DNA of 64,000 bases. It comes from Eledone cirrhosa. Lineage: Eukaryota. Both the position numbers and the translations under genes were made by a program. Each line of letters opens with the position of its first letter. Positions within the stretch are counted from its first letter, which is position 1. The DNA is taken from contig OZ024742.1 in assembly GCA_964016885.1 (NCBI GenBank), positions 296,980,001 through 297,044,000 on the forward strand, given 5' to 3'. The notes under the pieces were generated by a model. The model was not told the DNA's origin. It worked only from the letters and a program-made list of their open reading frames with translations, and ran no database searches. Shown here piece by piece: positions 7,711 to 64,000 of the stretch.

Positions 7711-7894
7711 TGGATTGGCAGTATCGGAAGAGTGTTGGACGCCATGCTTTCCAGCATAGTTACGTCCCTTTACGATCTGAGTTCAAATCCCGCCGAGGTT
7801 GACTTTGTCTTTCATCCTTACGGGGTCGATAAACTAAAGTACCAGTAATGCACTGGGTAATTGCTGGCCTTGTGCCTAAAGTAGAAACAATTAT
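7711..7894 (+). mobile_element. tRNA-derived SINE family A (Meta/MESC-like core)
   Basis: A-box-like TGGCAGTATCGG, B box GAGTTCAAATCC, core TTTCATCCTTACGGGGTCGATAAA..AAGTACCAG and tail GGCCTTGTGCCTAAAGTAGAAACAATTAT. More than ten related copies occur in the window. Confidence 0.88.

Positions 7895-24819: not shown

Positions 24820-24823
<4 letters not shown>
23486..24823 (-). pseudogene. Penelope/Naiad RT + GIY-YIG endonuclease ORF remnant
   Basis: ORFs 24609-24823 and 23777-24337 plus manual translation of the intervening and downstream sequence to the stop at 23486-23488. Several stops and frameshifts. Confidence 0.85.
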
Positions 24824-27756: not shown

Positions 27757-28760
27757 GTGTGTGTGTGTATGTATATATGGAAGTAGGCGTTTTAAAGGCC
27801 AGTATACTTGAAATGTTTTAACCTTTACTGAATAAACACTCAATAAATGTAAGCAGAGAGAAAGGTGGCAGTGACTTTAAAGTTACAGCTATTACTTCAT
27901 CTAACAGGCAGATGAAATAATAGCTGTTAGAAATATATAGATATATATCAGCATCATAATAACCATTTTTCGGTACTATTCAGTCACTTCTTTGACAAAA
28001 GCTGAAAAATATCATCAAATCTGAATCTGATAACCGAGGGAATTCCTGAATAGACAGTGGTAAGCCAATTTCAGAAAAAAAGATTGGTTAGCTTGTTCTA
28101 CAGCAGATATTGGTAAACCAGTTCCAGAACAGATACTGATAATCTAGTTCTAGCACAGATATTGATAAGTTAGTTCCAGCCCAGAAATTAGTCAACCAGT
28201 TCCTGAATACTCTGATTTCATATGAGAACTTTTGCAAAGAATTGTTAATGATGAAAATGAAACCTCTAATACACGACATGATGCTAGCCAGTTTATGAAT
28301 CAATTTTAACTTTTAATTACCCGATCTTTTGCTTAGGTTTAGGAATAAAATTCTTATTCAGATTGTCCATGTACAAAAAACATTCCAAGACAAAACTAAC
28401 AATAATTCAAGATTGACCTTGTAATTTAAAGATCCAATGAGGATATTTGTAAATAGTTGAGACACATTGATCAGCGAATTGCTTGAAGAAATGCTGAAAT
28501 TATGTGATAAATGGGATATCTACGTAAAATGAAACCCATACAGAGGAAACCTGGTGAATAGTCATGGGTGTAGAGTGAACTGTGATGGCAGAAATGCTGA
28601 TAATAAAGGAAGATAGCTTTGATCATTTCAGGAATAAATTGGAAGAAATATTCGTCAATCTCCATGACTTGCATCTAAATTTGAATTCTTTTAGAAGCCA
28701 GAAGATTTAACAAGAACGAAAGCAATGACATTCATAACCCATTTCAAAGTAAAGTGGTCT

Positions 28761-32411: not shown

Positions 32412-32730
32412 TTATTCAAGGTAGAAGCAGAAAGTCTGAAAGGTTGAGTGAACACATATAATATACATATATATGTTTTACCCCTTCCCCTCCTCTTGGT
32501 GCTATGCCATTAGTCTTGACATTCCATTCATATGCTGAAGGAGGATGGTGAAAGTAGCTATGCGGTTAAGAAGTTTGATTCACAACCATGCAATTTGAAG
32601 TTCAATCCTACTAAATGGCACACAATACTGCCTTAGAAATGTCTCATCTAACCCATATTGCCATTGAAAACAGGTGCAAAAATGATGATGATGATGATGT
32701 ATAATAAAAACGATAATAATAATATTAATA

Positions 32731-32908
32731 ATTGTTTCTACTTTAGGCACAAGGCCAGCAATTACCCAGTGCATTACTGGTACTTTATTTTATCGACCCC
32801 GTAAGGATGAAAGGCAAAGTTAACCTCGGCGGGATTTTAACTCAGATCATAAAGGGACGTAACTATGCTGGAAAGCATGGCGTCCGACCCTCTACCGATA
32901 CTGCCAAT
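32731..32908 (-). mobile_element. SINE family A abutting the 3' end of the Tx1-like LINE
   Basis: Near-identical to the reverse complement of 7711-7894. Confidence 0.9.
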
Positions 32909-33166
32909 AATGCTTTGTTTATTAACCACAAGGCTTTACACAAAGTAAGACATTAAGGACAATACAGGACAACACAGTACGGTACAAATGGGCATTTTTG
33001 CGTGTAAAAAAAACAAAAACAGAGGATGTAACAAAAAAAGAAACAATGAAAAATTCCCCAATAGAAGGGGGACTTCTGAGGGACATTCGTGGAGAAAGCC
33101 CATTAAAAAAGCCACGGTTACCCTGACCACCAGGGCAAGTGCCCTCTCCCAGTTTTCAACTTCAAT

Positions 33167-36100
33167 TTACAGGCACATACTCAGAGGGTCATTCTTGCCT
33201 CTCACACGGGCCATTTTTGCCACGCTCACCCATCTTTCAACAACGTGCTGGGAAGAGAGCACTTCCCTCTCTACCCTGGTTTTCCTTTTCAAATGAAATT
33301 TGAAAAAGTTAATCAGGGCATCACCGAAGAGGTAGGTGCTCGTCTTCAGCCCTTTCAAACGCGTCCACCATACTATCACTTTGGTCATAGCCACCAGAGA
33401 GATAAAAACTGCCTGCCCTTCCCGGCTAAAGGAAGAGGCCGGAGCAATCCCCACGATGGACTCAGCAGATATCCGGATCCGGATCGGTCCTACATGCGAC
33501 AGCAGGTGTTCGACATAAACACACAAGTCAGCAATGCTCGGACACTGGACGAGTGCGTGCAGGACGGTTTCGTCGCCTTGCGCGCATCTCGGACATGCCC
33601 GGCTGACGGCACCTCCGTGACTGTAGAGTTTATCCGGAACTGGCAAAGCTCCTCAGTAGCACTGCCAGGCCAGGGATTTCTGGAAGTTGTCCATAGGCCC
33701 CGGCCCGAAAGTTCTTCCGAAGATATTGGCTAGTTGATTGTCGTCGATGCCTAGAGTTTTCCCAAGTACGTCGTCGCTCCTCCCTTCCACTAATCCTCTA
33801 TAGAACGCCAAGGTGGAGTTTCCACCGATCACATTGCCCGACTGGTCGAGGGCTGTGAGCACCTGAATACATTCCAATCTCCAAGCGCTTCCTCTCGGTC
33901 TTCGCTTGACCCAGGACTGCAGCTCCGTCAAGGAGACGAGCGAGGGAAAGACGCGTCTAGCAAACGGCGACCACACCTGATCACCGTCGAGGAAGAGGTG
34001 GAGATGTAGCCTGAGCGCGTGTCTGCACATCATCAGCCACGGCAATCCCAGCCCTCCACGTAGCGAGTGTTGACAGCAGGTGGACCGCCTGCTGACCATT
34101 GGAGCGCGTCCCTTCCACAAAAAGCGAAAGAGCAAATGCTCCAGCGCAGTCAGGCGAGGCTTAGGACAAGGCACGACGGTCAGGCGGTAGTAGATGACGG
34201 ACGCGATGTACGCATTCGCCACCTCCGCTCGACCTTCTAGCTTCAAATCTGCCCATTTCTGGGTGAGAGAAGCCATCTTGCTCATCACCTCGTCCCAGTT
34301 TTTGTCCGTCTGGAGGTCCGGACCGAACCAGACCGCTAGCAATTTAACCGGTCCGTCCGTCCAGCGCCCGACGACGCTGGTGGACGGCATGGACCTGCCT
34401 CTCCAGGTGCCGAGCTGCAGGCCCACCGACTTTTCCTGGTTGATCATTGCTCCTGCCACCGTCTTATGTTCTTTAGGGTAGTGCCGATCGCCTCTATGTG
34501 TTTGGCGTTCAACACCACTACGGTGACATCGTCTGCGTATGCTGACACGGATCTTCCGTATCCTAGTTGGCGCGGGACCCCCCCCCCCTCAACGTCTCCA
34601 GTTTGTGCAGTAATGGTTCGAGAGTAAATACGTACAACAGAGACGAGAGCGGACATCCTTGGCGGACCGAGCACATGATGTTGAACGGTACCGAAAGGTG
34701 ACCGTTTACTCTCACCACAGAGCAGAAGTCGCTGTGCATGGCTGCTATCCAACCTCTGAAGACGGGCCCAAAGCCAGCCACTCTCAAGACTACCGCCAGA
34801 TAACGATGGTCTAACCTATCGAAAGCTTTCGACTGATCTAAATTGATCAAGGACCCACCCGTGCCAGGTTCCCTAGCTACCCTCTCCACAATGTATCGCA
34901 TGAGGTGGAGGTTGTCCTGGATAGATCTGTTTGGAATGGTGCATGTCTGCGCCTCTCCCACCAGACCACCAACGACAAGCACCAACCTCTTTGCTAGCAT
35001 CTAGGCCAAAATCTTGAACTCTGTGTTTAGCAGAGTTATGGGCCTGAAATTATCTATGTTATACCCCTTGTTCGGATCCTTTCTCAGCAGCACCACCGCT
35101 CCTCGGCTCACAGAGCTGGGAATTCTCCCGTTCTGTTTCCAGTTGAGTAGACGTCCGCCAAGAGGCACCCGAACAAGTCTGGCATCTGTACGTAAAGTTC
35201 ATAGGGCAAACCATCCAAACCAGCGGCTGTTATCGTCTTTTCGCAACACTCCGCCTTAGTGGCCGAGAGCCACAGCAGTCCGTCGAGGTAGGCACTAAAG
35301 TCCATCCCTCGATCCACCCCGCCGCTGCCCCGAACAGCTGAACGAAGTGTTGCTGAAAAGCTTCACACATTTGCCCGGGATCGAGTAGCATGCGCCTGTC
35401 GTGGTCCAACAAAGACCGGATCGTGGCTTTATTGCCACGACGCGCCTCCGCCACTCGGGCCCATTGAACAGCATTCGTCCCCTCGTGTCTGAAAGCACGC
35501 ACCCTTGCTCTGACAACGCAGCCTTTGTGCTTTGAATTGAACAATTGGTCAAGGGCCAATTTCGCCGCAAGTACGTCGGTCGTGATGCCTTTACTAATCG
35601 CCTCGTCTAATTTTCTAACTAGTTCTCCCTCTGTTCTATTTTTCTCTATTGCTAAAGCCTTACTAAACCTAATGGACTCTACTCTAATCGCTCTTTTCAG
35701 AGCAAACCACCATTTGTTGTTGACGATGGCCCCCGTCAACGCCCGCTTAACTAGCTCGCTAATCCGGTCTCTGTAGTCCTTGCGCGCTGTTAATGACGCG
35801 TTTAGTTTCCAGTAGTTGGGTCCTTGTCTATGAAACCTATCTAAGTCAACCTCACAGATCACGAATTTGTGGTCCGTGTAGTCGACTATTTTGAAATGTG
35901 GACAGCCTATGCTAGACCTATCTATTTTCCTACAAAATACCCTAACTAGATATGATCTGGAAGTCCCGATGCGGTTTGTCCTTGTCCACATTGGCACATT
36001 CGGGAAATCCAGACGGTACCTGTCAGACAATTGAAGCCGTCTGAGCAGGTTTGTGAGGCTTTTACACCCTCCTCCCCTATCCGCTAATCCCACACAGTCC

Positions 36101-36499
36101 CAACGTGCATCTAAGATCCCGTCCCAGTCGCCCACTAACACTCAGGCCACCCTGCTCCTGTGGGGGCATAGACGGCCACTAGCCTGAAAGCTTGCCCGTC
36201 TACGTTGGTCACGTCCAGCACCACCAACCTTCTAGGTCCAGGAAGATGGCCCATATGGTAAGATCCAAATCTCTCCGAAAAAGCACAGCAACTCCTCCCC
36301 ACGATCCAGGGCGGCTAGGAGATGCGTACACATCGTAGCTGCCGAAGATCGGAGAGAAGTCTCGTGCTTCGGAGATTCTGGTCTCGCTGATGTCCACCAC
36401 ATCTATGTTTAGTGACCTGAGGTCATTGGGGAGGTGGCACTGCTTCCATGACGACCCCAGGCCACGCACATTTTTGCTGCCTATTCTGAGTGAGCTCAT
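33167..36499 (-). pseudogene. Tx1-like ORF2 (APE + RT + zinc-binding C-terminus), multiple frameshifts
   Basis: Collinear ORFs 36209-36499, 35230-36141, 35108-35317, 34563-35000, 34444-34752, 33653-34459 and 33167-33646. Confidence 0.88.
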
Positions 36500-36799
36500 G
36501 TTGAAAAGGAGTGGAAAAAGATGGGAAAGACCACTTACCTCACTTCTCGTAGAGGAAGGATGGTTTCTCCATCCTTATCACTGCTTGTGGCTTCCTCCGG
36601 AAGGATGTCCTTATAAATCCCCCTGGAGAGTGTTTGTCGGAAGTCTCCGAAGTCCTTGGGGGAATTTTTGTTTTAGTGACGTGTACGTTTTCTGTGTGAT
36701 GCAAGTGATTTGTATGTATGGAGGTGGTATTAATTTTTGGGATGTTGTGTAGTCTTTTTCTGTGATGCTGGTATTGTGTTGGATGTAGTGTAATAATTG

Positions 36800-36983
36800 T
36801 TTCTACTTTTGGCACAAGGCAAGCAATTACCCAGTGTATTACTGGTACTTTATTTTATCGACCCCGTAAGGATGAAAGGCAAAGTTAACCTCGGCGGGAT
36901 TTGAACTCAGAATGGCAAGGGCCGTAACTCTATGCGTCAAAGCATGGCGTCCGACCCTCTACCGATACTGCCAATCCACCGCT
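36800..36983 (-). mobile_element. Full-length SINE family A inserted into Tx1 copy 1
   Basis: TSD atgtagtgtaataattg at 36783-36799 and 36984-37000. Confidence 0.92.
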
Positions 36984-37187
36984 ATGTAGTGTAATAATTG
37001 GTTGTTGTTCAAATTTAATGCTGTGTAGTGTGTAACGTTTTGGTTGTTTTGTTTTGTTTGCGTTTGTTGTGGTTTGTTTCTGTTTCGCTTTTTGGTGATT
37101 TTTGTGGTGTTGGTGATGGTGGTTGTGGGGTTAATAATGGTGATGGTGCTGGAGTTTGTGGTGATGGGGCTGGTGATGCTGGTGATG

Positions 37188-38647
37188 CTAGTGTGGGTGG
37201 TGGCATAGCTGTCTTAACTTTTTTCTTTGCTTATTTGTTTCCCCCTGCATTTTGTTTTTGGAAGGCGAAGGAAGAGGCGCTTTTTTTTGGCGGGGGGGGG
37301 GGTCTTTTTTTCTTTTTCTTTTTTCCTGATACCATTTCTCCTCGTCACAATCTATCTCCAGTTGCGATAGGTCGGGAAGTGGAAAATTCTCCACAGCCGT
37401 TGGTTTTGGTTGTGGCATGGTGGATGGTGGAGGCGCTGGTACTAATTCTGGCGTGGTGGGTGGTGATGGTGTTGGTTTTGCTACTGTTGCTGGGGTTGTT
37501 GCTGCTACAGTTGTTGCTGCCATTTCTGCTGCTGGTGGTTTTGATGGTTGAGTCACTGGGGTGAGTAGGAGAGGGGGCTTCAACTTTTTAGCACGAGGGC
37601 AGAAAGCCTTCAAGTGGGTTCCTTCGCCACAATCGACACACCTAGGCCTTCTACCCTCAACGATTACGGTGAGGTGACTGCCGTCATTGAAGTCTATCAC
37701 CTCTGGAATTTGCTCAATGTTGTTTTGGTCAGCTTGGATCAGGAGCTCCATCCCAGATCTGGACCAGTTTTCCTGCTTTTCTTTTGTTACCTCAATTATT
37801 TTCGTGTTGGCCTCTATACCAGCGAGGACGGCAGCCATTATCCAGGGAATTTCGATGGCCGGCGGAACGTGGGTCACCCTGATCTTCACGAGTCTCTGAC
37901 CACAATAGCTTGGGACGAGTGTGAATTCGTAACTTTTTAATGGGGCCATGGAGGGCTCTCTGGCTTCCTGTGGTGTTCCAAAGAATACGTCCACGGTCCC
38001 ATATTTCTGCCCACATCTGATGTGGGGTTTTTTCGCCCACACATGTCCCAAAGCTTTTTGTATCTGGGACTCGGATGCCCATTCCACTCGGCGTGATTTT
38101 GTGTTTATCGTTCGATATGACACGGTACATAGGCGCCGATGCTCCATTTTATTAGATGGGGGATGAGGCTAAACCTGTACCCATCTTTTTTACCATTCTC
38201 TTGGCTTCATTTAATTCATCCTGGCTTACCTCGATTGTTTCGCTTTTCTTGGCTGCTTTGTCAAACGACACATTTTGTTTTGCGCTGGGGTTGATGTTGT
38301 TGTTGTTATTGTTATTTTTAGTTTCAGTTGTGGTGGTAGTGGTGGCGTTAGTGGTGTTTGGCGTGGAAGAGTCGATTCTAGGTGAATCCATTTCGATGTC
38401 ATGAGATAATAATTTTTTTTTGTTTCTGTTGTCGCTGTGGTGGTGGTGGGGGAGGCGGCTTTAACACCTGCAGTTATTGGTAATGGCGGGAAATGAATGT
38501 CTGCATATGACAAATTTAAATTATTGCCACTGCTTATATTTTTAGTGTTGGCAAACGTAGTAATGTCTACAATGGTGGTGTTGGTGGTGGTGGGAGGTGA
38601 TGGTTTGTTAGTTGTCTGTCAGCTTTGTGTAGCTGAGTGCCGTCCAT
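37188..38647 (-). pseudogene. Tx1-like ORF1 (zinc knuckle, Pro/Thr-rich), disrupted
   Basis: ORFs 38226-38513, 38152-38391 and 37188-38147. Probable ATG at 38647; homologous to 43443-44707. Confidence 0.8.
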
Positions 38648-38861
38648 GTTTTTTCAAAGAAAGTTTTTGTTTGATAATTATAAAAGTTTAAAATGTTGGG
38701 CTCAAGGCCCCAATATTATTTACTGTCCTTTCCAGAAAGCAATATATGTGAACTTATAAACACTTAACAACAAAAATTTTCCATAACTGGCAATTTGAAA
38801 CAACTGAAAACAACAAACCTTTGCGGAGCTCACGATAATACGATTTCCTACGTAGATCGCC

Positions 38862-38929
<68 letters not shown>
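38862..38929. repeat. (AAT)n microsatellite between retroelements
   Basis: Direct observation. Confidence 0.97.
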
Positions 38930-38930
<1 letters not shown>

Positions 38931-39291
38931 GATCGTGCCTGATTGTGGATGTGGCCTGCCCATTCGACACGAGAGTGCAAGAGAAGGAGAGGGAGAAAAT
39001 TAATCGATACCAGGACTTAAAGTGGGAGGTAAAAAGGATTTGGAACTGCTATGAAGTCAAAGTGGTCCCGATTGTCATAGGCGCACTAGGTACTATCTCA
39101 AAAAGTTTCCAGGGAGGGTTAAAGAAAATTGGCCCCGCCACGCTTTTTGGAACGCTTCAAAAGGCATGCTTGCTGGGAACAGCAAGAACCCTCCAATACG
39201 TCCTGAATATCTGAGGCTGCAGGTAGTGGCTTGATATTCATTTCAACAAACTTTCCAGTTAACTAACATCGATGACTGAGACTCAAAGAAC
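38930..39291 (+). mobile_element. 5'-truncated R4/Dong-clade non-LTR retrotransposon (RLE C-terminus + 3' UTR)
   Basis: DVACPFD..EKEREKINRYQDLKWEVKRIW..VVPIVIGALG..LQKACLLGTARTL is the typical R4/Dong restriction-like endonuclease end. Flanked by (TAA)n on both sides, the known Dong target. Confidence 0.85.
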
Positions 39292-39306
39292 AATAATAAT
39301 AATAAT

Positions 39307-39617
39307 TGTTTCTGTATTGGCCACAAGGGCTAACACGAAGAAAAACATTACAGACGGCACAGAACAGTACAAGACGATACAAAGTGGGTTTTGGTCGTGT
39401 AAACAGGTTATAACAAAATTGGGCTAGAAATCAAAAAATTCAAACAACAAAAATTCCCCAAAAAGGAGCAAACATCCGAGGGTCACTCGTGGAGAAAACC
39501 ACACAAACAGGCAATGGCCACTCTGACCATACTCGTCGCTCTTTCCCTCCATAGAACGCCGAGGTGTATGTTCCACCGATACTAGTGCCTAGCTGGTAGA
39601 GGGCAGTGAGGGCTTGG
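39307..39617 (-). mobile_element. Truncated, internally deleted Tx1-like 3' fragment
   Basis: Duplicates the 3' UTR at 39627-39845 and joins it to an ORF2 segment (TSAFYGG). Bounded by AAT repeats. Confidence 0.82.
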
Positions 39618-39626
39618 AATAATAAT

Positions 39627-42600
39627 GATTTCTTTATTGGCCACAAGAAAGACATTACAGACGGCACAGAACTATAGAGGACGATACAAAGTGGGTTTTG
39701 GCAGTGTAAACAGGTTATAACAAGATAGAAATCGGGATAGAAATAAAAAAAATTCAAACAACAAAAATTCACCCAAAAGGGGGAAGCATCCGAGGGTCAC
39801 TCGTGGTGAAAACCACACAAAAGACCACGGCCACCCTGACCACCAGGGCAAGCACCCTCTCTCAGTTTTCCCACTCCTCAGTCTACAGGCGCATACTCAG
39901 AACGGGCCCATTCACTTGGACCAGACTCGCCACTTTCACCCACCTTTCAACAAACTTACTAGAAGACAGCACTTGCCTCTCCACCCTGATTTTCCTCTTC
40001 AAGTGAAACTTGAAAAAGTTGATCAGGGATTGGCCGGAGAGGAAAGTGTCCGTCTTCAACCCTTTCAACCTTGAACACCACACAATCTCTTTCGCCATGG
40101 CCACCAGGCAGAGGAAAACTGTCTGCCCTTCCTCCTCTTTAAAGGAGCTTGGCGGGGCTATCTGTACAATGGACTCAGTCGATAACCGGATCGGTTCTAC
40201 ACACGACAGCAGCTGTTCGACATAGCTCCACAAGACAGCAATCGTCGGCCACTGAACGAGTGCGCGCGGGATGGTTCGTTGCCCTGTGCGCATCTTGGAC
40301 CAGCTCGGCTGACAGAACTTCTGTGCCTGTAGAGCTTATGCCGAACCAGCAACGCTCTCCGGTAGCACTGCCAGGCCGGGGATTTCTGGAAGTTGTCCAT
40401 AGGCCCCGGGCTGAAAGTTCTCTTGAAGAGAGCAAACAGCTGATCGTCTTCGACGCCCAGGGTCTCCCTGAGAGCATCCTCACTCTTCCCCTCCACTAGC
40501 CCTCTATAGAATGCCGAGGTGGATTTTCCACAGAAAATGGATCGTCTGACCATGGGAGCACATCCCTTCCACAAAAAACGGAAGAGAAGGCGCTCCATTT
40601 CGGTCAGAGTTGGGCAGGGGAAAGATACGATGGTCAAGCGGTAGCAGATGACGGACGCGATGTACGCATTCGCCACCTCCGCCGAACATTTCTGGGTGAG
40701 AGAGGCCACCCTGCTCGCCAGCACCCCACGACGCTGTCGGACGGCATAGACTTGCCTCTCCAGGTGCCGAGTTTATCTTTGCTCCTGTCACTGCTTCGTA
40801 TTCCTTGAGAGCGGTGTCGAGCCTCTGGACGTGTTTGCTACTCGACACCACCACGGTGACGGCGTCGGCGTAAGCTGACATGGATCTCCCTCATCCCAGT
40901 TCGCATGGGACCACCCTCATCGTCTCCAATTTGTGCAGTAACGGCTCGAGGGCCAATATATACAAGAGGGACCAGAGGGGACAACTTTGGTGGACTGAGC
41001 GCATGATGCTGAATGGCTGCGCCAGGTGACCATTCACCCTCACAATCGAGCAGATGTCGCCGTGCATCGCAGTGATCCAGCCACTAAAGACATGCCTGAA
41101 GCCGGCCGCCTCGAGGACTACAGTCAGGTACCGATGGCCGACCCTATCAAATGCTTTAGATTGATCCAAGTTGAACAGGGCCCTACCCGTGCCAGGTTCC
41201 TTAACCACCCTCTCTATCAAGTATCGCATGAGATGGAGGTTGTCATGGATGGATCTGTCCGGAATGGCACATTACTGCGCCTCTCCCATCAGATCACCGA
41301 CAACAACCACCAATCTCTTTGCTAACACCTTGACCAAAATCTTCAACTCTGCGTTTAGCAGAGTTATGGGGCTGAACTTGTCTATAACGTCCTCCTTGTT
41401 CGGGTCTTTTCTCAGCAGCACCACCGCTCCTGGGCTCACAAAACTGGGAATGCTCCCTTTCTGCTGCCAGATGCAATAGACATCTGCCACAAGGTTTCCG
41501 AACAAGTCTGGCATATACACAGAAAGCGCGTAGGGCCATGCAAACCCGGCGATTTACCCCTCGTGCAGTCAGACATGGCTTCCCGTATTTCACCTGCCGT
41601 TATCTGCATTTCGCAGCACTGTGCGGCGGTCGTCGAGTCGAAAGCCGCGGCAGTCCGTCGAGGTATGCACCGAAGTCCATACTCCTATCCGGCCCGCCAC
41701 CGCTCCGGAACAATTGAGCAAAGTGCTGTTGAAAAGCCGCACACATCTGCTCGAGTTCGAGCAACATGCGCCCATTTTGATCAGGAAAAGACCGAATTGT
41801 GGACTTGTTGCCACGTCACGCCTCCACCACCCGGGCCCATTTGAACGGCTTTCGTCCCCTCGTGTCTCAGAGCACGCGCTCTTGCTCTGACAACGCAGCC
41901 TTAACGATTTGCGCATCGGTTGCGATGCCTGTCCAAAACGCCTCTTCTAGCTTTCTAACTAACTCTCCCTCTACTCTATTTTCACTACTCCTTTGCTAAA
42001 CCTTATCGATTTTACTCTAATAGCCCTTTTCAGGGTAAACCATCACCTGTTGTTGACGATCGCACCCGTCACTAATTCGCTAATTCGGTCTCTGTAAACT
42101 TTGCACGCCGGAACGACGCGTTCAGCTTCCAGTAACCGGGTCCTTGCCTATGGAGTTTTCTAAGTCAACTTCACAGATCACAAATTTGTGGTCCGTGTAA
42201 TCGACTACTTTAAATTGTGGACAACCTACACTAGCCTTATCTCTTTCCCTACAGAATACCCTATCTAAATACGATCTGGATGACCCGATGCTGTTTGCTC
42301 ATGTCCATATTGGCACATTCAGATAATCCATTCTATACCTGTCAGACAGTTCAAAACGTCTGAGCAAGTTGTTGAGGCTTTTACACCATCCTTCCCTGTC
42401 TACTAGCCCCACATAATCCCAGGGTGCATCTAAGATACCGTTCCAGTCGCCCACTAACACTGAAAAGCGGGACGTTTCAAGAAAGGTCTCTAGACATCTG
42501 AATAAATCTGGCCATCCTACATCCTAGCCTGAAAGCATTGCTTTCGCTGCCGGTCACGTCCAGCACCACCGACTTACCTTCTGGGTCCAGGAAGATGGCC

Positions 42601-44905
42601 CGTATTGCGAGATCCAAGCCTCTCCGAAAAAGCACAGCAACTCCTCCCCCTGAACCTGGACGGCTGGGAGATGCGTATACATCGTAGCCGCCAAAGATCG
42701 GTGCGAAAGCTCGTGCTTCCGAGATTCTGGTCTCGCTGATAGCCACCACATCTATGTTTAGTGACATGAGGTCGTTGAGCAGGTGACCCTGCTTCCAAGA
42801 TAACCCCAGGGTACGTACATTTATACTGCCTATTCTAAGTACGGCCATGCTGGGTGAGAAACGGGGTAAGTGAGAAAGGATCACTTACCTTGATCTTTAG
42901 GGAATTTTTGTTTTATTTGTTTGTAATCTTCGAGTTCAATTTCCACAATGTTTAATATTTTTTGGTAATGTTCTTGATGTTGGTGTGGTGTGGTAATTTA
43001 CGTCTGAAATATCGGTGTGCTGTTTTATATGTTCCATTAGTCCTTGGTGTGCAATGTTTATGGCTGTGTACTTTGGGGGAGGGAGGGGTGGTTTTGTTGC
43101 TGTTTTCTTGTTGCTGCTGTTGGGTGTGTGTGCTTTGTTGGGTTTGCAATGTTGCTGTTTGTGGTGATGCTGGTGATGCTTGTGGTGGTGATGGTGGTGG
43201 CGTTGCTGCAAGTCCCCTTGCAGCCTTTACCCTTCTTTGTTTGTCCTCGCTTTTGGAGGGCGAAGCTAAGTGGCTCTTTCGGTTTTGCTTTTTGTGGTAG
43301 ACCTTTTCCCACTTCAATCCCGCCTCATACTCCATGTCGGATTCCGTAGCGTCTGGGAGAGGTATGTGCTCCACGGATGTTGGTGGTAGTCGTATAGCAC
43401 CCTCTGGCGATTTTGTTGCTGGTGCAGCTACTCCAAATGTAGCTACTGGTGTTGCGACCACTGCTGCCGCTGTTTAGTTGTCCGTGGCCTTGGTATGGGT
43501 GCCACGGACGTTGCCCTCCTACTCGCCGTGGAAGGGTCTTCTGCCTCTGTTGCCTGCCCTGCTCTTGGTAGCAGCGGATCAGGCGTCGGAAGGAGAGGAG
43601 CCTTCTTCTTGGCTGTCTTCTGCGGGCAAAAGGCCCTGATGTGATCCTTTTGCCCACAGAGATAGCACTTTGGGCGCCTTCTTTCCATGGTTATAGGGAG
43701 ATGGAGTCCTTTCTCGAGGTCTATGATATCTGGGATAGCCTCGATACACTCCTGGTCAGATTGTATTAGCATTTGCATGCCTATACCAGACCAGTTCTCT
43801 CTTCCCATTCTCTCTATTTGCAGTATGGTGGTCCTGTCCTCGATTCCAGCAAGGACAGACGCGGCCAGCCAAGCTATGGGCTCGTCGCGTGGGACCTGGG
43901 TCCTTTTGACCCTCACAATTTTCTGCCCGCAGTAGGAGGGCACCAAGACTATGTCCTCACTCTTTAGAGTTTCCAAAGAGTGAGACTTTGCCTCTTGGAG
44001 GGGGGGGGGGGCGAACAGTACGTCTACTATGGCATACTTTTTGCCTCGGGTGATGTGGGTTTTCCGCGCCCAGACGCACACCAAGGCCTTTTGGATTTGA
44101 GCCTCCGTGGCTCTCTCCACCCAATGTGACATTTTTCTTACGGTGCGGTAAGTCACTGTCCGTAGCTGCTGGACCTTGAAAAAATCGGGTGGAGATTTCA
44201 AGGAAACTCTATTGTCATTTCTTGTCACCATGGCACTTGCGACTGCCATCTCCTCCTCCGTGACTAGCACTGTTTCTATATTTCGGGCCACACCTGCGAA
44301 AGAAGTGGCCCCTTTTTCAGCGGCACCATTATTGCTGCCGCTACTGCCGTTACTGGTCTTGTTGTTGTTGCTGCTGCTACTGCTACAAACGGTGCTGTTG
44401 GTGGTGTTGCTGTTATCACTGTTGCTGTTGGTGTTGTCGTTGTTTATTTTCTTGTTAGTGGTGTTAATATCGTTGTTGCATTTGTTATCATGTTTTTCTG
44501 TTGTCTGTATTTTGGTTGTCGCTGTTACTGTTGTAGTTGGTGTGGTAATTTTTTTTAAATTAGTGTTCTCAGTGTTGTTGTCATTGCTGTCTTTGTTCAC
44601 GTTGTTTGTGGTGGTGTTTCTTGTGTCAATTTCTGTAACCTCCTCTCAACTTTTACGCCGTTGTCACATGACAGCAGACATATTGCTGGGGGGTGTGGCT
44701 CAGCCATGTTTTTTTAAAATAATTTTTAAAAGTAAAATTTTCAAATATTTGGGCCAAAAGGCTCAACTATTATACTTTCCCCTTCACAGGGCAAAGTCCA
44801 AGGGCTTATATCCCTTACACAACAAGAAAAATTTAACAACAAATAATTATAACATGTAAATAAAGCGACTTACTGAGAGCGAGCAAAAAGACGTCCGATG
44901 AGGCC
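39627..44905 (-). mobile_element. Full-length Tx1/L1-clade LINE copy 2 (related family, disrupted)
   Basis: ORF1 43443-44707 with CYLCGQKDHIRAFC. ORF2 from the ATG at 42848 with GSINVRTL, DQSKAFDRV and YADA. The 5' end (GGCC) abuts (AAT)n. Confidence 0.92.
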
Positions 44906-52987: not shown

Positions 52988-53685
52988 CCAGCAGGGTGTC
53001 CAAAATCACCCTCCTCACCAACCTGATCATGCACAGGTTTTACTGGGTTACATGTTACCAGTAGCTGAGGAGTGACCTGGCATAACATACATACAAACAT
53101 AGACCCAATTATCACAGCTACAAAAAGGACAGCCAGGATGGAATACCTCTAGATTCCTTATTAGTTCAGCATAAATGTTTGCCTTTTTCCTAATCTTTAG
53201 CATTATATTGACATTTGCTGGGCAACTTATGTTAGAAACCGACTCTCTCTCTCTATCAGTGAAAGCTTATTAAATATAAAAAACTCAAGAACATACATAC
53301 AAACATCCATTCATGCATACATGCATATATACACATACATGATGGCTGCAACTTTATTTCGAGTAATGCCATTGCTTGATTCTTAAGTATGAGCGTCACA
53401 GATGTGGCTTTTTAGTACTATACATACATGATGGCTGCAAACTCTGCTAAGAGTATTGCATTCGCTTGTCAGATTCAGATGTGTGATGCTCAGACATAGC
53501 TTTTCAAGCCTGCTAGAGACTTGCACTCCTTCACACATTGGCGACAGCACTGGATTTCCCTGGCCTCAGGTCTTGCATCAGGTTGCCTATGAACCTTCAC
53601 AATACCGTGGAGATCCTAGTTCACTGGTTCTCTTTCAACACATACATATATACATACATAAATACATACAGATAGTTATAATAAT

Positions 53686-54079
53686 TGTTTCTACTTTTGC
53701 CACAAGGACAGCAATTACCCAGTACATTACTGGTACTTTATTTTATTGACAAAGTTATTTTTTTTATTTTATTGAAAGGCAAAGTTAACCTCGGCAGGAT
53801 TTGAACTCAGATCATAAAGGACCGTAACTTTATGCTGCAGAGTATGGTGTCCGACTCTCTACTGATACTGCCAATCCACAGATAGTTATAATAATTTTTC
53901 TACTTTAGGCACAAGGACAGCAATTACCCAGTGCATTACTGGTACTTTATTTTATCGACCCCATAAGGATGAAAGGCAAAGTCAACATCGGCGGGATTTG
54001 AACTCAGATCGTAAAGGGATGTAACTATGCTGGAAAGCATGGCGTCCGATCCTCTACCTATACTGCCAATCCACCGCCC
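53686..54079 (-). mobile_element. Two tandem SINE family A copies at one target
   Basis: acagatagttataataat is present three times (53668-53685, 53878-53895, 54080-54097). Confidence 0.9.
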
Positions 54080-57080: not shown

Positions 57081-58120
57081 TATCCTATGCAATCCATTGC
57101 TTGAAAATGGTTGCCCAGGCCTGGTCTTGTAATTCACAACATATAATCATACAGCATATAACTTTTTTACGTCACATTCATATGCCAATGAAGCATATTT
57201 TTCTTACATGTACCATCTAATCTTTTACTATTTCTTTTATTATCACATTATAACCATCATACATAGATTATTGGGTATAACTACAGTTTAGTACCCTGCC
57301 CTACCTATGCATAGGTAAGTTTTCCACTATGTTAAGTATGATAATGTTGATGAAAGTTACAAAAGGTTATATTTATAAATAGTTCAATTAAAGTATATAG
57401 CTTTGTTCATTAATGCTTTCATGTACTAAATACTTTTGATCTATATTTGCTATAGGTTCAATGTAAACTTTCATGTTGATAGTGAATAATAGTAATCAGG
57501 ATTTTGTCATAGATTTTCTATTGGCATATCATATTATTTCTACATCTACGTATTACAAAACAAATAAAAATTTTCCCCTTTAAATCTTATCGACAAAATT
57601 AATTTACATCAAAAATATTTATTGGCAACATCAATTAAAAAATGTGCATTAAAAAAATTGTAAGGAAAATCTAAGTGTATGTATGCTTCTCATTTCGTTT
57701 CCCCTATGGCTTCAGTTTATCAGCAACAAAAGCAGATATTGTACTATTAACAAATTAGCATTTTCATATTCAACATTTAGTCATCTACATTCAGTAAACA
57801 TAGTTTCACTGATGTTATTTCATTTATCAGCAAATATCCTGAAAATTGATCATCCTCTTTATTAAAACCAACTTCTCACATTTGTCTAATCCTGAGGCCT
57901 TCTGTCATATAATGTCAGAAACCAATATATTTAGCAAAGATTTTAAACTGCTTTAGTTATAAATTTAATATACAACTAGAACTGAATGTATTGATGCAAC
58001 AATAATGTTATTGGCTAAGAGGATCTTGTATTAAACCAATTTATACGAAATCTAATTATAAATATTATCCTACCTGAGAACTTTTACACACACACACAAA
58101 TGCACACACACACATACACA

Positions 58121-58329
58121 TCATCATCATCATCATTTTACGTCTGCTTTTCCCTGCTTGCAAGGGTTGGATGGGTCCTATTCAGCACAGCATCTCTCCA
58201 CTTGTCACGGTCCTTCGTCATCTCCTCGGTGAGTTTCAGCGATCTGAGGTCTGCTCTCATCACCTCCGCCCATGTTTTTCGTGGTCTACCTCTACTGCGT
58301 CTTCCTTCTACTGGGATTTCTTGGCACAT
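58121..58329 (-). mobile_element. 5'-truncated RTE 3' end, same family as 25660-27756
   Basis: CQEIPVEGRRSRGRPRKTWAEV..DLRSLKLTEE.TKDRDKWRDA plus a (TGA)n tail. Confidence 0.9.
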
Positions 58330-59867
58330 ATATATATATATATAAAGAGAGAGAGAGGGGGGGGAGTAAGATAGAGACAGATAAGATATCACCTAACTTA
58401 GTACCCAACAGTGTAGATATTAATATGAGATAGAATGTTTTACAGTCGATCTCGGACCATTGTGTGTGTGTATGTGTGCGTGTGTGTAACTTGAATATTT
58501 ACATTATCAGCAATGGAAACATAGTTTCCTTGGTCCAGTCTGACTATCGACTACTTTCATTTCTCTTAAGGATAGCTGAAAGGCTACAGAGAAACACCCT
58601 GCCTACTGATGGCTCACCAGATGGTAATGTTTTCTTTATTAAAGGTTTCAATGAATTTAATTGTTCATAATCTCTCCAGATTAAATTTGAAATGTAGTCG
58701 ACTCAACATCAATGACTATAGTATTAGCCAACCACTATAAATACTAGTTGAGAAAATCAGGTAAAGTGCCTGTCAAGATGGAAAAAGTGTGGATAGAAGT
58801 ACCTTCAAGAATCAAACCCCATTCATTACTCACCAGGCCTTTCCATGAAACTCTGAGACTTCCATGATCTCATCAATAAAAATGAAGAACATATTCAGCT
58901 GTACAAAATATAAAACCTCAGGGCTCTTCAAACAAAATCATTTTATGATTTTGTCCTACCCCAATTTACAGTCACTCACTTGTTAGACTTTCTATAAAAA
59001 TGCAGTGAACTATTAGTTACTTCATTGGAAATCCTTAACCTATTGTAATATGCTTGAATCATCTAGGCTATGTGATGTTCTGATACATTGCTGATGACAA
59101 TGTGCTTCCATTTCACCCCTCTTTAACATTTTGACCTGAATTCTTTGTGGTCTATGGGTATATAAGAATTTAAGTACAAGTCCAAAAATTTTGGAGAAAG
59201 TGAAACATGAACGGCAAAGCTGGCCTCAAAGGAACATGAAGTCAGAATGTAATGAACCAAAACAAATTTTATATTTTGACAGGACAGTATAAGAATTCGA
59301 CCAAACTACTGCTGGTTGCTTGGATTTTGCTCCACAACCATAGAGCAGTTTGTCTGAAATGCAATGGCTGAAGTCCATTTTTTAACACTCTTTTAACCTT
59401 TATATGATACAACCCCACTGGCTGGGTGGCCAGACCATAGCTACATCTCTCCACCGTAGAAACTCGACAGGCATTGCCACTATTGTGCCGCTATGAGGCG
59501 CTGAAGTTGGATTTCACAAATTATGATAAATAACAAAATTTTTAAATGTTCTTTTTGATTTCACCAATAAATTAAATATATTTTTGTATTATTTTAAAAC
59601 AATATAAATTCATTGCACTCTATTTTTTTTTATTCCAATTTGACTGTAACAGTTCAGTAAAGTAGATTAAATTGTAATTAAGACAGTTTCTATAATTTCT
59701 CACATAATGAAATAATGAGATTTCCAAATACCATTTGTGGTTTATTTTATTCCAAGAATCTTTTGATGCTCAATAATTTCGTTTGTAAATAAGTGAAACT
59801 GTTGAAAAACTACACTTCATTAAAAATGTGCTATAATCCTATTATTTAATTATGTTTATTTGCTGTA

Positions 59868-60150
59868 AGGTGGAGAGTTGGTGAAGTCATTAGAACATCA
59901 AATAGAATGCTTTACAGTATACATTAAAGCTCTCTGCATTCAGAGTTCAAATCAAACTGAGGTAAGATTGCCTTTTCATTCTTTTGAAGTTGATAGCTAA
60001 AGTATCAGTGTCATACTTTTGTCAAATCTTCCACTCTTTCTCTTTCTACAAGAAATCAACTATGTTCAGGCCTGGAGAAGGATCGGCTCTGCCAGGACTA
60101 AAGTTAATAAGACACTGCTCCTACGAGAGAGATATGTTCCCCATGTATGA
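59868..60150 (+). mobile_element. SINE variant as at 50821
   Basis: gagttcaaatc B box and caggcctggagaaggatcggctctgccagg tail. Confidence 0.62.
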
Positions 60151-60947
60151 ATACTAGTTTTTCTAAAGAATGTTTTAAATCAATTTATTACATAAATTCT
60201 GATGTTTTAAATTGTGTGTGTATGGTATTTTGGGGGAGGATTTCAACGATTATTCTTTTACTATTTCCAGTGTTGAGATTAGCTTCACTAGCACAGCATC
60301 TTGTAAGTTATAATCGATCATATTGACCTCAATAAGTATAGTTTTCAAGTCTAGTGCTTATTTTATCGATCTCTTTTTGTCAAACCACAAAGCTACAGGA
60401 TGTAACCATACACACATACATACATAACACAGTCAACGCAATCAGTCGCATATTTTGGCATGGAGACTATTTATTAAATTTAAGATGAATATTATCTCCG
60501 ACAGTAATCCCACAACTACAGTCATGTTGAATAACTGGTTATTCTTCTAAATATATCTTCTGAAGACACCTTTTATTCGAATTCGTAGACATATCCAACT
60601 AAATACATAATTCATTTTACAAGGATTTGCTACAAACAGCATGACTGAACACAACATCAACAACAAAATTAAGGAAGTATCGAAGACAAACAACAAGAAA
60701 GAACACAACTAATTAGGAAATTACAAGTACAATCCATTAATGGAACAGTACAAATATGTAAAACATTCCAAAAATGTTGCATCTCATAACTGCATATACA
60801 CATGTACAGATACAAAGCATATACACATGCACACATACAACTCAAAACATACACATCCACACATACAATAGCATCCATATCTAGACATGCATACATAATC
60901 TACCTAGTTGATGTTGTGTAAATTCCAATGAGAGAGTCTTGTGTCTA

Positions 60948-61541
60948 TGTTAGAAACCGACTCTCTCTCTATTGGGAAAAAAAATTTGTGAAATTATAAA
61001 ACCAGAAGAACATACATACACACATACACGCAGGCATACATACATGCATGATGGCTGCCCCCTCATTATCGAGTATGGCTATTGCACGATATAACATCAT
61101 TAATAATTATCAATTAATGCTATCGTGCAATGCCTGTGTATGAAGATATTTTTTTAAAGTGAGGAAAGACTGTGCACTGAGCCAATCCCACTTTCTGAGC
61201 AACAGAGCTATAACCCAAAAAGAAGAAGAGATAAACATCATCGGTAACTGCAGGTTTATGTCGAAATTATCCCAGTTTCCTGAGTTGCCTTCTCCTAGAA
61301 GAATGCCCTGACAAAGGCTAGGAGTCCTTCACTCCCAGTGAAGTATCCAGCGAGTATCCAGCTCGATTATTTCTATGTCCCCATGCATATATACACATAT
61401 ATACATATGTACATAAATACATACATACGTACGTACATACATACATACATACATACATACATACATACGTACGTACGTACATACATACATACATACATAC
61501 ATACATACATACATACATACATACATACATACATACATACA

Positions 61542-61572
<31 letters not shown>

Positions 61573-61820
61573 GTATGTATGTATGCATGTATCATGATGA
61601 TGATGATGATACATACATGCATACATACATATATGAATATGATGGCTGCAACTTGATTTCAAGTAATGCCATCACTTGATACTTAAGCATGAGCATCATG
61701 GACGTGGCATTTTAGTCCTGCTAGGGACTTGCCTATGACCAGCAATACTATACATCGCAAAATATATAACATATCAAGCGATGCCTGTGCTTGAAGGTTT
61801 TTTTTAAGTAAGGAAAGGCA
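60948..61820. repeat. Repeat family C copies around a (TACA)n array (about 61400-61635)
   Basis: Shares gttagaaaccgactctctct and downstream blocks with 53230-53470 and 52255-52580. Confidence 0.65.
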
Positions 61821-62097
61821 TACATACATTCACACATATATACATACATATATTCATACATAAATACAGGCAAATATACATGCATGCATACAATGAAGTC
61901 ATTGGTAGTGAATTGAGAGGTCATTGTTAGAGATTATAGAGATCATTGGAACTATTCACATGGGTCATTGATAATGTTTACAGGAGCCTGTGGTAGTGAT
62001 TCCAGGGGCCATTGAAAGAGTTTACTGAGCTAATTGATAGTCTCCTGCTCTCTGGCTGACAAATTTAGAAAATGGAAAACATAAACAGAACTTGATT

Positions 62098-62671
62098 GTG
62101 CATATATATATGTGTGCCTGTATGTATATATATACATGCTACTGTACGTCTGTATACATATATGTATGTACGTATACATACATACTTACATTTAAGTAAG
62201 TGCCGTACTAAGAGTGAGAAATGAAATTTCGTTTCATTCTATTCCATTTATCGTTTTCGGTGCGCCTGGCCGACTGAACTCACTTGATATGCAAATTAGG
62301 TTGCTCAGCTGTTAATTTTCATAAGGAAAGTATATACTTTTGGACGTACAACCATCTGGCAGAAAGGTATACGGTGCTGGCGATAGCTAATAAGCTTGAA
62401 ACTAGTACATCGTTCCTGTGTCAGTGTTGAACAAAAAGGTGACGTGGTTGCCTAAACACTGTACGGCGTAATTCAGGCTGTTCGTTTGTTTACAAACGAA
62501 CAAACCGAGCATTATAATAAATGTTCGGTAAACTGATACGTGCATATATATATGTGTGCCTGTATGTATATATATACATGCTACTGTACGTCTGTATACC
62601 TATATGTATGTACGTATACATACATACTTACATTTAAGTAAGTGCCGTACTAAGAGTGAGAAATGAAATTT
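62098..62671 (+). mobile_element. Non-coding terminally redundant element (442-nt unit + 132-nt repeat) with a hammerhead-like motif; retrozyme or Penelope pLTR-like
   Basis: Direct repeats 62098-62229 and 62540-62671 with one mismatch seen. Flanking gatt duplication at 62094-62097 and 62672-62675. Hammerhead-like motif at 62371-62413 and two hairpins at 62479-62529. Confidence 0.72.
62371..62413 (+). ncRNA. Minimal type I hammerhead-like motif (variant core)
   Basis: ACGGTG CTGGCGA T-AGCT-aata-AGCT-T GAA ACTAGT A CATCGT. Helix I is 6 bp with one G.U, helix III is the palindrome ACTAGT, the site is GTA. The core has G in place of A6 and a U.U at the base of helix II. Confidence 0.65.
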
Positions 62672-63299
62672 GATTACAAATAGATTTTAACAAAACTTAA
62701 GTAAAGAGAATTAAATACTGATTACTGGAACTTTACATATATCAATACCAAATCTAATATTATTAACACCATCTCTAATTATGTTATTAAAATATGAAAA
62801 TAGGTTTAAGATATATATATATATAAGCTGTACAGTGATAAATAGGTTATTATTTTTCTAAAGATATAGTGTGTTGTATCATTACAAAACAGGATTTTGT
62901 TGGCATTAATACTTTTCTTTACTTCCGTATAAGTCAATCTCAGAGTTGAAGAAATATAAATAAGGTTGATTAAATCTAAAATCAAATATATAAGTGTGTG
63001 AAGATAACTGCAGTTTTATAAAGAAATGCATTAAAAAGAAATCGCTACCGGAAAACATATTTTAGAATAAAATATTAAAGAGATTAGAATAGCATAAAAA
63101 GGGGAAAATATCGTCAATCTTTACAAATCTAATATATCAGAGATTTCTCATGTTGAAAAGAATAAAAACCATGTAATAAATATTATATTAATGTTGGATA
63201 ATTGTAAAAAATTGCTGTAGTTTACGAGATAGATTTGCATTAAATTTTATGTCTGATAGCAGTTTGTTTCAAAACGAAATTGCTGACAATAGCAATAAT

Positions 63300-63482
63300 T
63301 GTTTCTACTTTTGGCACAAGGCCAGCAATTACCCAGTACATTACTGGTACTTTATTGTATCGACCCCGTAAGGATGAAAGGCAAAGTTAACCCCGGCGGG
63401 ATTTGAACTCAGATCGTAAAGGGACGTAACTAAGCTGGAAAGCATGGCATCCGACCCTCTACCGATACTGCCAATCCATCGC
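63300..63482 (-). mobile_element. Full-length SINE family A
   Basis: TSD tgacaatagcaataat at 63284-63299 and 63483-63498. Confidence 0.92.
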
Positions 63483-64000
63483 TGACAATAGCAATAATGA
63501 AAGTTGCACATCTACTGAGAGTAAAATAATTTATTTTACCTTATATTTGCATTATCTTCCATGGATCCTCAACGCCTGATAGAATCATAGGGGCAACTTG
63601 ATGATATATGCTGTATTTTGAGCATTTTAACCCTTTAACATCTACTTTACTCTATATTTACTATTATATTTTCACTGTAAAGGCTTTACCTCACGTAATT
63701 ATCTCACATAATATTGAATCTATGAGATTTTGATGTTATTTATTTTGTGAACAATATCTTAATGCTGGTATGAGTGGCAGGTTATGACTGGTTTGAACAG
63801 AAAGAGGTGAGAGAATTCAGGTCGGATACGGTTGGTTTAAATGCTAAAAATTTAAACCTGGTGAAGCCAATCTCTTTAAGTCAGAACACAACCAATTTCA
63901 CCGAGAGATAAAGGGAGAAAGAAAAGGAATAAATTCACTATTGAACTGTTACTTTATCTGTTCACCCTGGAAGAATGAAAAGACAAAATTGACCACGGAG

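What the first reader, a model, noticed from the sequence alone, without database searches (positions are those of the whole stretch)
62098..62671. 574-bp terminally redundant, hammerhead-bearing mini-element: candidate retrozyme copied from a 442-nt circular or tandem RNA
Seen: the element is about 1.3 copies of a 442-nt unit. Its 132-nt ends differ at one position, suggesting a young insertion. It is flanked by a short gatt duplication and encodes no ORF. It contains a minimal hammerhead-like motif (62371-62413), two adjacent hairpins (62479-62502, 62504-62529) and an ATGCAAAT octamer near 62289. Established: partial tandem structure plus a minimal hammerhead typifies Penelope pLTRs and non-LTR retrozymes. 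Inference: a non-autonomous ribozyme retroelement family mobilised by a Penelope-type RT. Terminal redundancy is what reverse transcription running more than once round a circular RNA would leave.
Basis: partly seen in the sequence, partly recalled or inferred. Interest (0 to 1): 0.8.

Follow-up and report, generated by a model that had tools for sequence, protein, structure and literature searches.

The report
Ribozyme repeat hitchhiking on Penelope retroelements
This is one slightly damaged copy of a very abundant 442-base non-coding repeat that carries a hammerhead-ribozyme motif and whose insertions have the same two-ended layout as this genome's Penelope-like jumping genes, so it is likely copied by their enzyme, possibly from a circular RNA.

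Summary
In detail: 1.3 copies of a 442-nt unit, 132-nt ends differing at one base, a type I hammerhead, two hairpins and an octamer; the flanking repeat is TTGATT. The unit belongs to a dispersed non-coding family (3,224 exact hammerhead matches; CTGACGA in most copies, CTGGCGA here) with a 466-470-nt sister family. Helices covary. Copies are not randomly permuted: 95 of 113 touch (TA)n; 61 of 114 are head-to-head two-arm insertions; 158 of 177 outer 3' ends lie at two sites about 60 nt apart; 45 of 49 two-arm pairs use one of each. The sister family and two young Hydra-clade Penelope-like families here follow the same rule, which matches the published PLE 'tail' and two RT start sites. 36 of 37 informative arms read through the ribozyme cut site, so the template was circular or uncleaved multimer; no RNA data decide it. 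No partner element was found by homology. The window copy is atypical (one arm, odd end, no TA). Verdict: new non-LTR retrozyme family, likely PLE-mobilised. The scan noted a similar TA-targeting pattern in another genome.

The parts
62092..62097 (+). Left copy of the 6-bp boundary repeat TTGATT (probable target-site duplication)
   Evidence: right flank is single-copy in the assembly
62098..62539 (+). One full 442-nt unit (u1-u442) of the retrozyme family
62098..62167 (+). Long TA/CA-rich hairpin, kept in the sister family with different sequence
   Evidence: predicted
62183..62198 (+). Small hairpin holding the proximal end site S (family ends at u91-97 = 62188-62194)
   Evidence: ends; fold:
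62195..62251 (+). 'Tail' between the two end sites; contains hairpin 62220-62238; distal end site T at u150-154 (62247-62251)
   Evidence: loose (AT)n ends behind 62251 in 48 and 59 contigs of runs X1, X2
62289..62296 (+). ATGCAAAT octamer, kept in both families; function untested
62346..62432 (+). Extended stem that continues hammerhead helix I and would hold the cut ends together
   Evidence: predicted; sister family has a complementary stem of other sequence
62371..62413 (+). Type I hammerhead: helix I 62371-76/62408-13, core 62377-83 (62380 is G, family A), helix II 62385-88/62393-96, helix III 62401-02/62405-06, predicted cut after 62407
62461..62467 (+). 5' strand of a long-range helix that pairs with the start of the tail (62644-62650 in the next lap); compensatory changes in the sister family
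62479..62502 (+). Hairpin 1
62504..62529 (+). Hairpin 2
62540..62671 (+). Second, partial lap (u1-u132), ending in the loop of the tail hairpin, a rare end for the family
62670..62675 (+). Right copy of TTGATT; its first two T overlap the element end (possible priming microhomology)

Best explanation
The element is an atypical, core-mutated copy of an abundant non-coding tandem hammerhead family (a non-LTR retrozyme) that is likely copied in trans by a Penelope-like RT-endonuclease, probably of the Hydra clade, from a template that is predicted to be a ribozyme-made RNA circle. Shown: family size, non-coding tandem units, covarying hammerhead, (TA)n targeting, head-to-head two-arm insertions, two fixed outer ends used one per arm, read-through of the cut site, both arms usually from one template lineage, and young intact Hydra-clade elements with the same end rule. 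Inferred: tandem loci are transcribed; two hammerheads (probably as a dimer, since helix III is 2 bp and palindromic) release a 442-nt monomer that is ligated; the PLE protein nicks both strands of a (TA)n tract; each 3' end pairs by 2-3 bases with the RNA, one at site S (u91-97) and one at site T (u150-154); both cDNAs run upstream for variable, often more-than-unit lengths and are joined at their 3' ends, which gives the head-to-head layout with the tail on one side only. The window copy is read as an off-target single-primed event that started in the tail hairpin loop, left a 6-bp duplication and has since lost the conserved A of the core, so it is probably inactive.
For: Copy number 3,224 and 8,656, controls 0. 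No ORF; none of 30 tail-selected loci continues from the unit into a PLE ORF. Hammerhead: 6 of 13 pairs change on both sides, covariation 0.330, 0 of 500 shuffles, slid controls at most 0.086 (18 related sequences); sister copy matches Rfam Hammerhead_HH9 at E 1.4e-8, family copy at E 0.12, both below the gathering score. (TA)n on at least one side in 95 of 113 insertions against 128 of 5,000 random window positions. 61 of 114 head-to-head; 158 of 177 outer ends at S or T; S/T in 45 of 49 canonical pairs, T/T 4, S/S 0 (p 8e-10); 11 of 11 in new tail-selected loci; 14 of 14 canonical pairs in the sister family; 9 of 9 resolved and 7 of 8 in two autonomous families. Autonomous ORF has RWK, DKT, CxCX5C, CxxC and CxH, the Hydra features in PMC8557442 section 11, which also reports (TA)n insertion; 127 scored copies 99-100% identical. 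Two internal RT starts bounding the tail are shown in vitro for a PLE (PMC11167929). 1 arm stops at the cut site, 36 pass. Rare variants shared by the two arms in 6 of 22 insertions against 1 of 163 same-subfamily control pairs; by successive units 26 of 9,705 site pairs against 37 of 204,700 between insertions.
Against: No RNA evidence of any kind. No homology between either retrozyme family and the terminal regions of four Hydra families (best score reached by 8 to 86 of 100 shuffles; best E 0.87), and tail lengths differ (57-63 and about 70 nt against 116 and 89 nt), so the partner is not identified; other PLE clades in the genome were not surveyed. A circle predicts S arms stalling at T: seen in 1 of 39. 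No excess of changes at the ligation site. A 31-unit sister array has variants shared among non-adjacent units (25 units examined), and some arms mix subfamily letters (13 discordant sites between arms, 14 between laps; L113), which a single circle does not explain. The base of helix II is U-U in this family (4 of 18 sequences pair there, all sister) and the minimum-energy fold is not the active one, so cleavage may be weak. The window copy itself lacks the family's ends and target.
Confidence: 0.72

Rival explanations
1. Same family and same PLE enzyme, but the template is an uncleaved linear multimeric transcript of tandem loci; the hammerhead plays no part in copying and circles are absent or by-products.
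For: Read-through of the cut site (36 of 37) and shared variants also follow if the source locus has identical units; hammerhead mutants did not affect PLE insertion in vitro and unprocessed RNA was the main substrate (PMC11167929); no S-arm stall at T; weak helix II.
Against: The hammerhead and a long end-closing stem are kept with compensatory changes across families only about 63% alike; no variant tracks lap rank across insertions, as a fixed linear master would give; circles are shown for other animal retrozymes (PMC7229834).
Confidence: 0.2
2. The unit is the pseudo-LTR of an autonomous Penelope-like element not yet recovered, and the copies are ordinary 5'-truncated PLE ends.
For: The architecture is exactly that of PLE insertions (PMC8557442, PMC3846280); an earlier scan note describes such a case in another genome.
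Against: Unit follows unit directly for up to 6 or more laps and 31 laps in the sister family; none of 30 tail-selected loci joins an ORF; PLE ORFs beside some of the 115 loci are separated from the element by (TA)n or other DNA in the four cases read (L063, L108, L141, L256/L258); 174 hammerhead variants with another base after the core were, in the 100 listed, point mutants of this family.
Confidence: 0.04
3. Satellite-like repeat spread and expanded at the DNA level (local duplication, unequal crossing-over, gene conversion), with the window element a simple partial duplication.
For: Long sister arrays show mosaic shared variants; Li et al. 2026 propose local amplification of retrozyme tandems.
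Against: Dispersed copies on many contigs with fixed, paired outer ends and variable inner ends; strong (TA)n targeting. DNA turnover may lengthen arrays after insertion but does not explain the ends.
Confidence: 0.03
4. A TRIM or other small LTR element with 132-nt LTRs and a 4-6-bp target duplication.
For: The window copy alone looks like direct terminal repeats with a short duplication.
Against: The 132-nt repeat length is private to this copy; arm lengths run from 34 to over 2,500 nt, inner ends are scattered, more than half of insertions are inverted pairs; termini are not TG...CA.
Confidence: 0.01

Closest known systems
Animal non-LTR retrozymes (Cervera and de la Pena 2020, PMC7229834; Li, Clavereau and Pollet 2026, bioRxiv 10.64898/2026.07.22.740005)
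   Same: Non-coding tandem units with one type I hammerhead each, low GC, thousands of copies, monomers to long multimers, strongly self-paired predicted circle (-142.3 kcal/mol, z -7.6 against 60 shuffles), co-existing PLEs; a U-U at the base of helix II as in one axolotl motif.
   Different: Unit of 430-470 nt is a little above the 170-400 nt range given for invertebrates; insertion ends, (TA)n targeting and head-to-head pairing are not described in the text I read; no homology to any pLTR found here, unlike 24 of 57 Xenopus families; RNA, cleavage and circles not shown here.
Hydra-clade Penelope-like elements (Craig et al. 2021, PMC8557442) and the PLE tail / two-start mechanism (Frangieh et al. 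2024, PMC11167929; Arkhipova et al. 2013, PMC3846280)
   Same: (TA)n targets, partial tandems, inverted 5'-truncated arm, a tail on one end only, two internal end sites downstream of the hammerhead.
   Different: No ORF; tail 57-70 nt rather than 30-40 nt; the whole element is the repeat unit; no sequence link to four local Hydra families.
Non-autonomous Chlamys elements such as MRC1 (PMC8557442, passage)
   Same: Non-coding head-to-tail multicopy elements moved by PLEs.
   Different: Those resemble autonomous partners at their 3' ends and belong to a clade that mostly lacks hammerheads; this family has a hammerhead and no detected 3'-end homology.

Membership tests
Non-LTR retrozyme | Short tandem repeat units, dimers to multimers, no protein coding | tested here: met
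Non-LTR retrozyme | One type I hammerhead with intact core in each unit | tested here: met
   family; the window copy itself has A-to-G at 62380 and only one hammerhead
Non-LTR retrozyme | No LTR, PBS or PPT organisation | tested here: met
   variable arm lengths and inner ends; PBS/PPT were not searched for separately
Non-LTR retrozyme | Self-cleavage of the transcript | not testable with these tools
   needs in vitro transcription; U-U at base of helix II makes the outcome open
Non-LTR retrozyme | Accumulation as monomeric circular RNA | tested here: inconclusive
   no RNA holder listed; genomic signs mixed
PLE-mobilised element | Inverted 5'-truncated arm and tail on one end only | tested here: met
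PLE-mobilised element | Microsatellite (TA)n target bias as in Hydra and Naiad | tested here: met
   95 of 113 against 128 of 5,000
PLE-mobilised element | Intact contemporaneous PLE in the genome | tested here: met
   773-aa ORF family, 127 scored copies 99-100% identical; second family with 713-aa frames
Derivative of a PLE pseudo-LTR | Sequence homology to the pLTR of an autonomous family | tested here: not met
   four Hydra families compared; other families not surveyed
Autonomous PLE | RT plus GIY-YIG ORF between pLTRs | tested here: not met
TRIM / LTR retrozyme | Fixed LTR ends (TG...CA), fixed length; type III hammerhead for LTR retrozymes | tested here: not met

The most novel reading that the evidence does not exclude
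Viroid-like RNA circles with no sequence debt to any local Penelope element parasitise Hydra-clade enzymes by structural mimicry: one circle is primed twice, at a fixed proximal and a fixed distal site, one for each strand of a cut (TA)n tract, and both cDNAs roll round it. The strict one-of-each rule seen in two retrozyme and two autonomous families would then be the genomic footprint of an asymmetric dimeric PLE complex on a single RNA, and the general explanation of the PLE head-to-head plus one-sided tail structure.
Probability: 0.35. Interest if true: 0.75.

Novelty: new member of a known kind. Interest (0 to 1): 0.5.

Why it matters
Animal retrozymes are known, but who moves them has rested on co-occurrence and on pLTR homology in frogs. 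Here the insertions themselves carry the PLE signature, counted over more than a hundred loci, and the same genome holds young, intact PLE ORFs with the same signature. That gives a ready pair of reagents (a 773-aa or 713-aa-frame Hydra protein, and a 442- or 466-nt RNA) for asking in the published in vitro assay whether a PLE copies a ribozyme circle in trans, and whether the two start sites are used one per DNA strand on one RNA. The window copy itself is an unrepresentative, probably dead member.

Tried and rejected
Rfam on 58000-64000: only microsatellite-driven miRNA hits, no hammerhead; on the window motif alone none. Sequencing runs: no RNA holder listed, which says nothing on expression. 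Empty site: no joint across the element in the contigs of X1, X2, X4, X5 (X1 and X2 are one sample and may be the assembly's own), and the right flank has no paralogue. u132 as a third regular end: rejected, of 30 loci fetched from 241 matches nearly all continue in the unit; only one other stub ending there was seen (L108). Neptune as the local clade: my first label, replaced by Hydra after reading the clade features. Partner search: 30 loci of the window's own PLE family, the L141, L108 and L063 families gave no homology; retrozyme copies lying beside L141-family copies are separate insertions in (TA)n. Pfam and PDB sequence searches gave nothing for the PLE proteins; the Atlas gave PF26215/GIY-YIG clusters at 0.96-0.99. 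Circle-collision and ligation-scar tests negative. Hammerhead pattern absent from metagenome and viral contigs. Sequence and place look-ups in earlier findings empty. One contig of organism B matches 388 nt at about 95%: too little to call transfer or orthology.

Full report
Coordinates: u1 is window 62098; the unit is u1-u442. An 'arm' is a run of unit sequence on one strand.

1. Observation. The element is one full unit plus u1-u132; the two 132-nt ends differ at 62158/62600 only. GATT flanks it, and the longest boundary repeat is TTGATT. It has no ORF. Rfam finds no hammerhead in the window.

2. The family. A DNA search gave 3,390 first-look candidates (40 scored, best others 97-98% alike). 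The 37-nt family hammerhead occurs exactly 3,224 times and a 31-nt tail motif 8,656 times, reversed controls 0. Subfamilies range from 99% to about 80% identity with units of about 408-488 nt. The window copy differs from the majority at 8 of 574 sites, one being 62380, which turns CTGACGA into CTGGCGA; A stands there in 116 of 118 hammerheads from loci not chosen on the exact motif. A sister family of 466-470 nt, about 63% alike, gives most of the 100 listed among 11,124 matches to a relaxed pattern.

3. The ribozyme. Helix I has 6 bp, helix II 4 bp plus a closing position, helix III 2 bp with a palindromic UA loop: the layout PMC4209133 (parts 1-2 of 4 read) describes for canonical metazoan type I motifs that work as dimers. 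On 18 units of both families 6 of 13 pairs change on both sides, covariation 0.330, reached by 0 of 500 shuffles, slid controls at most 0.086 (the sequences are related, so this is no probability). Core positions are invariant except N7 and the cut-site base, which is A, U or C. A sister copy scores E 1.4e-8 on Hammerhead_HH9, a family copy E 0.12, both under the gathering score of 52 bits. Against activity: the 10.1-11.1 pair is U-U in this family and the minimum-energy fold mispairs the core. One axolotl retrozyme motif has the same U-U, and the axolotl motifs cleave weakly as monomers and better as dimers (PMC7229834, passage). The predicted cut is after 62407.

4. How copies end. Sample: 29 best-scoring loci (with the window copy, without L027, a segmental duplicate) and 86 loci from the first 100 exact hammerhead matches on contig C1 (L069 dropped as a duplicate, L073 dropped as a presumed duplicate that it was not); L137 runs off its locus, leaving 114. 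Of these 61 are head-to-head pairs of arms, 49 single-strand, 4 complex. Of 177 outward 3' ends, 74 lie at u84-101 (S) and 84 at u140-156 (T); strict scoring resolves them to u91, 94, 97 and u150-154. Inner 5' ends are scattered. Among 49 pairs with two canonical ends, 45 are S with T, 4 T with T, none S with S (p 8e-10 against one half); 12 further pairs have an odd end. In 17 new tail-selected loci all 11 two-arm insertions are S/T (S widened to u105). In 26 sister insertions: 14 S/T, no S/S or T/T, 2 with an odd end, 1 unresolved, 9 single. (TA)n touches 95 of 113 insertions against 128 of 5,000 random window positions. Every common end falls on TA or AT, and shifts in other microsatellites, which suggests 2-3 bases of primer pairing (inference). 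Loose (AT)n ends behind 62251 in run contigs repeat the T end.

5. The likely enzyme. A tail on one end of an inverted, truncated arm is the PLE hallmark (PMC8557442 passages; PMC3846280 passages), and in vitro a PLE cuts and extends both strands and starts RT at two internal sites that bound the tail (PMC11167929, parts 1-2 of 4). This genome is rich in PLEs (59,432 candidates). One family is intact and very young: 127 scored copies 99-100% identical, 773-aa ORF, 3,578-nt unit, with RWK, DKT, CxCX5C, CxxC and CxH, the features of the Hydra clade, which inserts in (TA)n (section 11 read). No tree was built, so the clade label rests on motifs. Its two ends pair one of each in 9 of 9 resolved two-arm loci of 10 fetched; a second family does so in 7 of 8 two-arm loci among 15. 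Neither these nor two older families share sequence with either retrozyme, so the link is by signature only.

6. The template. A cleaved linear monomer would stop arms at the cut site. Among 74 arms whose partner arm carries the selected motif, 37 reach that site: 1 stops, 36 pass. Successive units of an arm share private variants 26 times in 9,705 site pairs against 37 in 204,700 between insertions (16 of the 26 come from one locus, L134); by rare variants 4 of 24 lap pairs share. The two arms share rare variants in 6 of 22 informative insertions against 1 of 163 control pairs, and T arms end near S in 9 of 39 pairs (p 0.0016 against a uniform spread, though plain truncation also favours short arms). 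Both points suggest two primers on one RNA. Against a simple circle: S arms end near T in only 1 of 39, no scar marks the ligation site, some arms are mosaics, and a 31-unit sister array has variants shared among non-adjacent units (25 units read), pointing to later DNA turnover or mixed templates. Circle versus uncleaved multimer stays open; I favour the circle about 3 to 1 because the ribozyme and its end-closing stem are conserved and circles are shown for other animal retrozymes (PMC7229834 sections 14 and 17).

7. The window copy. One arm, 3' end at u132 in the loop of the tail hairpin, no (TA)n, a 6-bp boundary repeat. Such an end is rare. An off-target PLE event fits (the studied PLE prefers to cut ATT), but capture by a LINE enzyme or by repair is not excluded (about 1 in 4, my estimate). 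No empty site was found.

8. Novelty. Non-LTR retrozymes and their proposed PLE link are in print (PMC7229834; bioRxiv 10.64898/2026.07.22.740005, parts 1-3 of 5 read), as are the PLE tail and two starts. In six searches and the texts named above I saw no account of retrozyme insertion ends, of (TA)n targeting by retrozymes, or of a counted one-of-each rule; most hits were seen as listings only, supplements (including Fig. S9 of PMC7229834, Figs S1-S2 of PMC11167929 and those of the preprint) were not seen, and Repbase and subscription journals were not searchable. Earlier scan notes report a similar TA-targeting non-coding repeat in another genome (e1-7810660; unchecked, not independent support). 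Verdict: a new family of a known kind, with insertion evidence that makes the open question of retrozyme mobilisation directly testable. Interest 0.5.

Noticed in passing
L248, L293-L341 (e.g. G000:C1:5738094-5752750): Sister retrozyme family, unit 466-470 nt, about 63% alike, canonical G-C at the base of helix II; 11,124 pattern matches (includes some mutants of the 442 family); same hairpin layout, octamer and S/T rule; one insertion has a 31-unit arm.
   Followed up: yes
L291:1401-4978 and L259-L290: Very young intact Hydra-clade PLE: 773-aa ORF, 3,578-nt unit, 127 scored copies 99-100% identical, ends at -165 and -49 from the ATG; its hammerhead-like core at about -318 is not canonical.
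   Followed up: yes
L356-L370: Second young Hydra family (713-aa frames, copies about 95-98% alike), end sites 89 nt apart, no CTGANGA...GAAA core found in its terminal region.
   Followed up: partly
window 22900-24821 (-): Decayed 5'-truncated Hydra-type PLE (RT, CxCX4-5C linker, GIY-YIG) starting at a (TA)n tract; 59,432 first-look candidates in the genome.
   Followed up: partly
L119, L081, L078; L295: In (TC)n or (CAT)n targets the outer end shifts to where the unit matches the target repeat (u143-147 in (TC)n), which fits priming by short pairing.
   Followed up: partly
window 3373-6448 (-) and 26100-27800: Endonuclease-plus-RT LINE frames, frameshifted; look RTE-like (label recalled, not tested).
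   Followed up: no
window 33100-44900: Several L1/Tx1-like ORF1 and ORF2 fragments in a GC-richer block (label recalled, not tested).
   Followed up: no
window 63294-63478, 53678-54074, 36791-36979, 32722-32908, 7711-7894 and others: A dispersed repeat of about 190-400 nt present at 10 or more places in the window.
   Followed up: no
window 61881-62036: Degenerate 22-nt tandem repeat, five copies, just left of the element (D6).
   Followed up: no
run X4, organism B: A single 478-nt contig, depth 8, matches 62202-62576 with 18 differences and an intact core; the run otherwise holds no family copies.
   Followed up: no
L113, L146: Insertions whose laps or arms carry letters of two subfamilies, suggesting template switching or later conversion.
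   Followed up: partly
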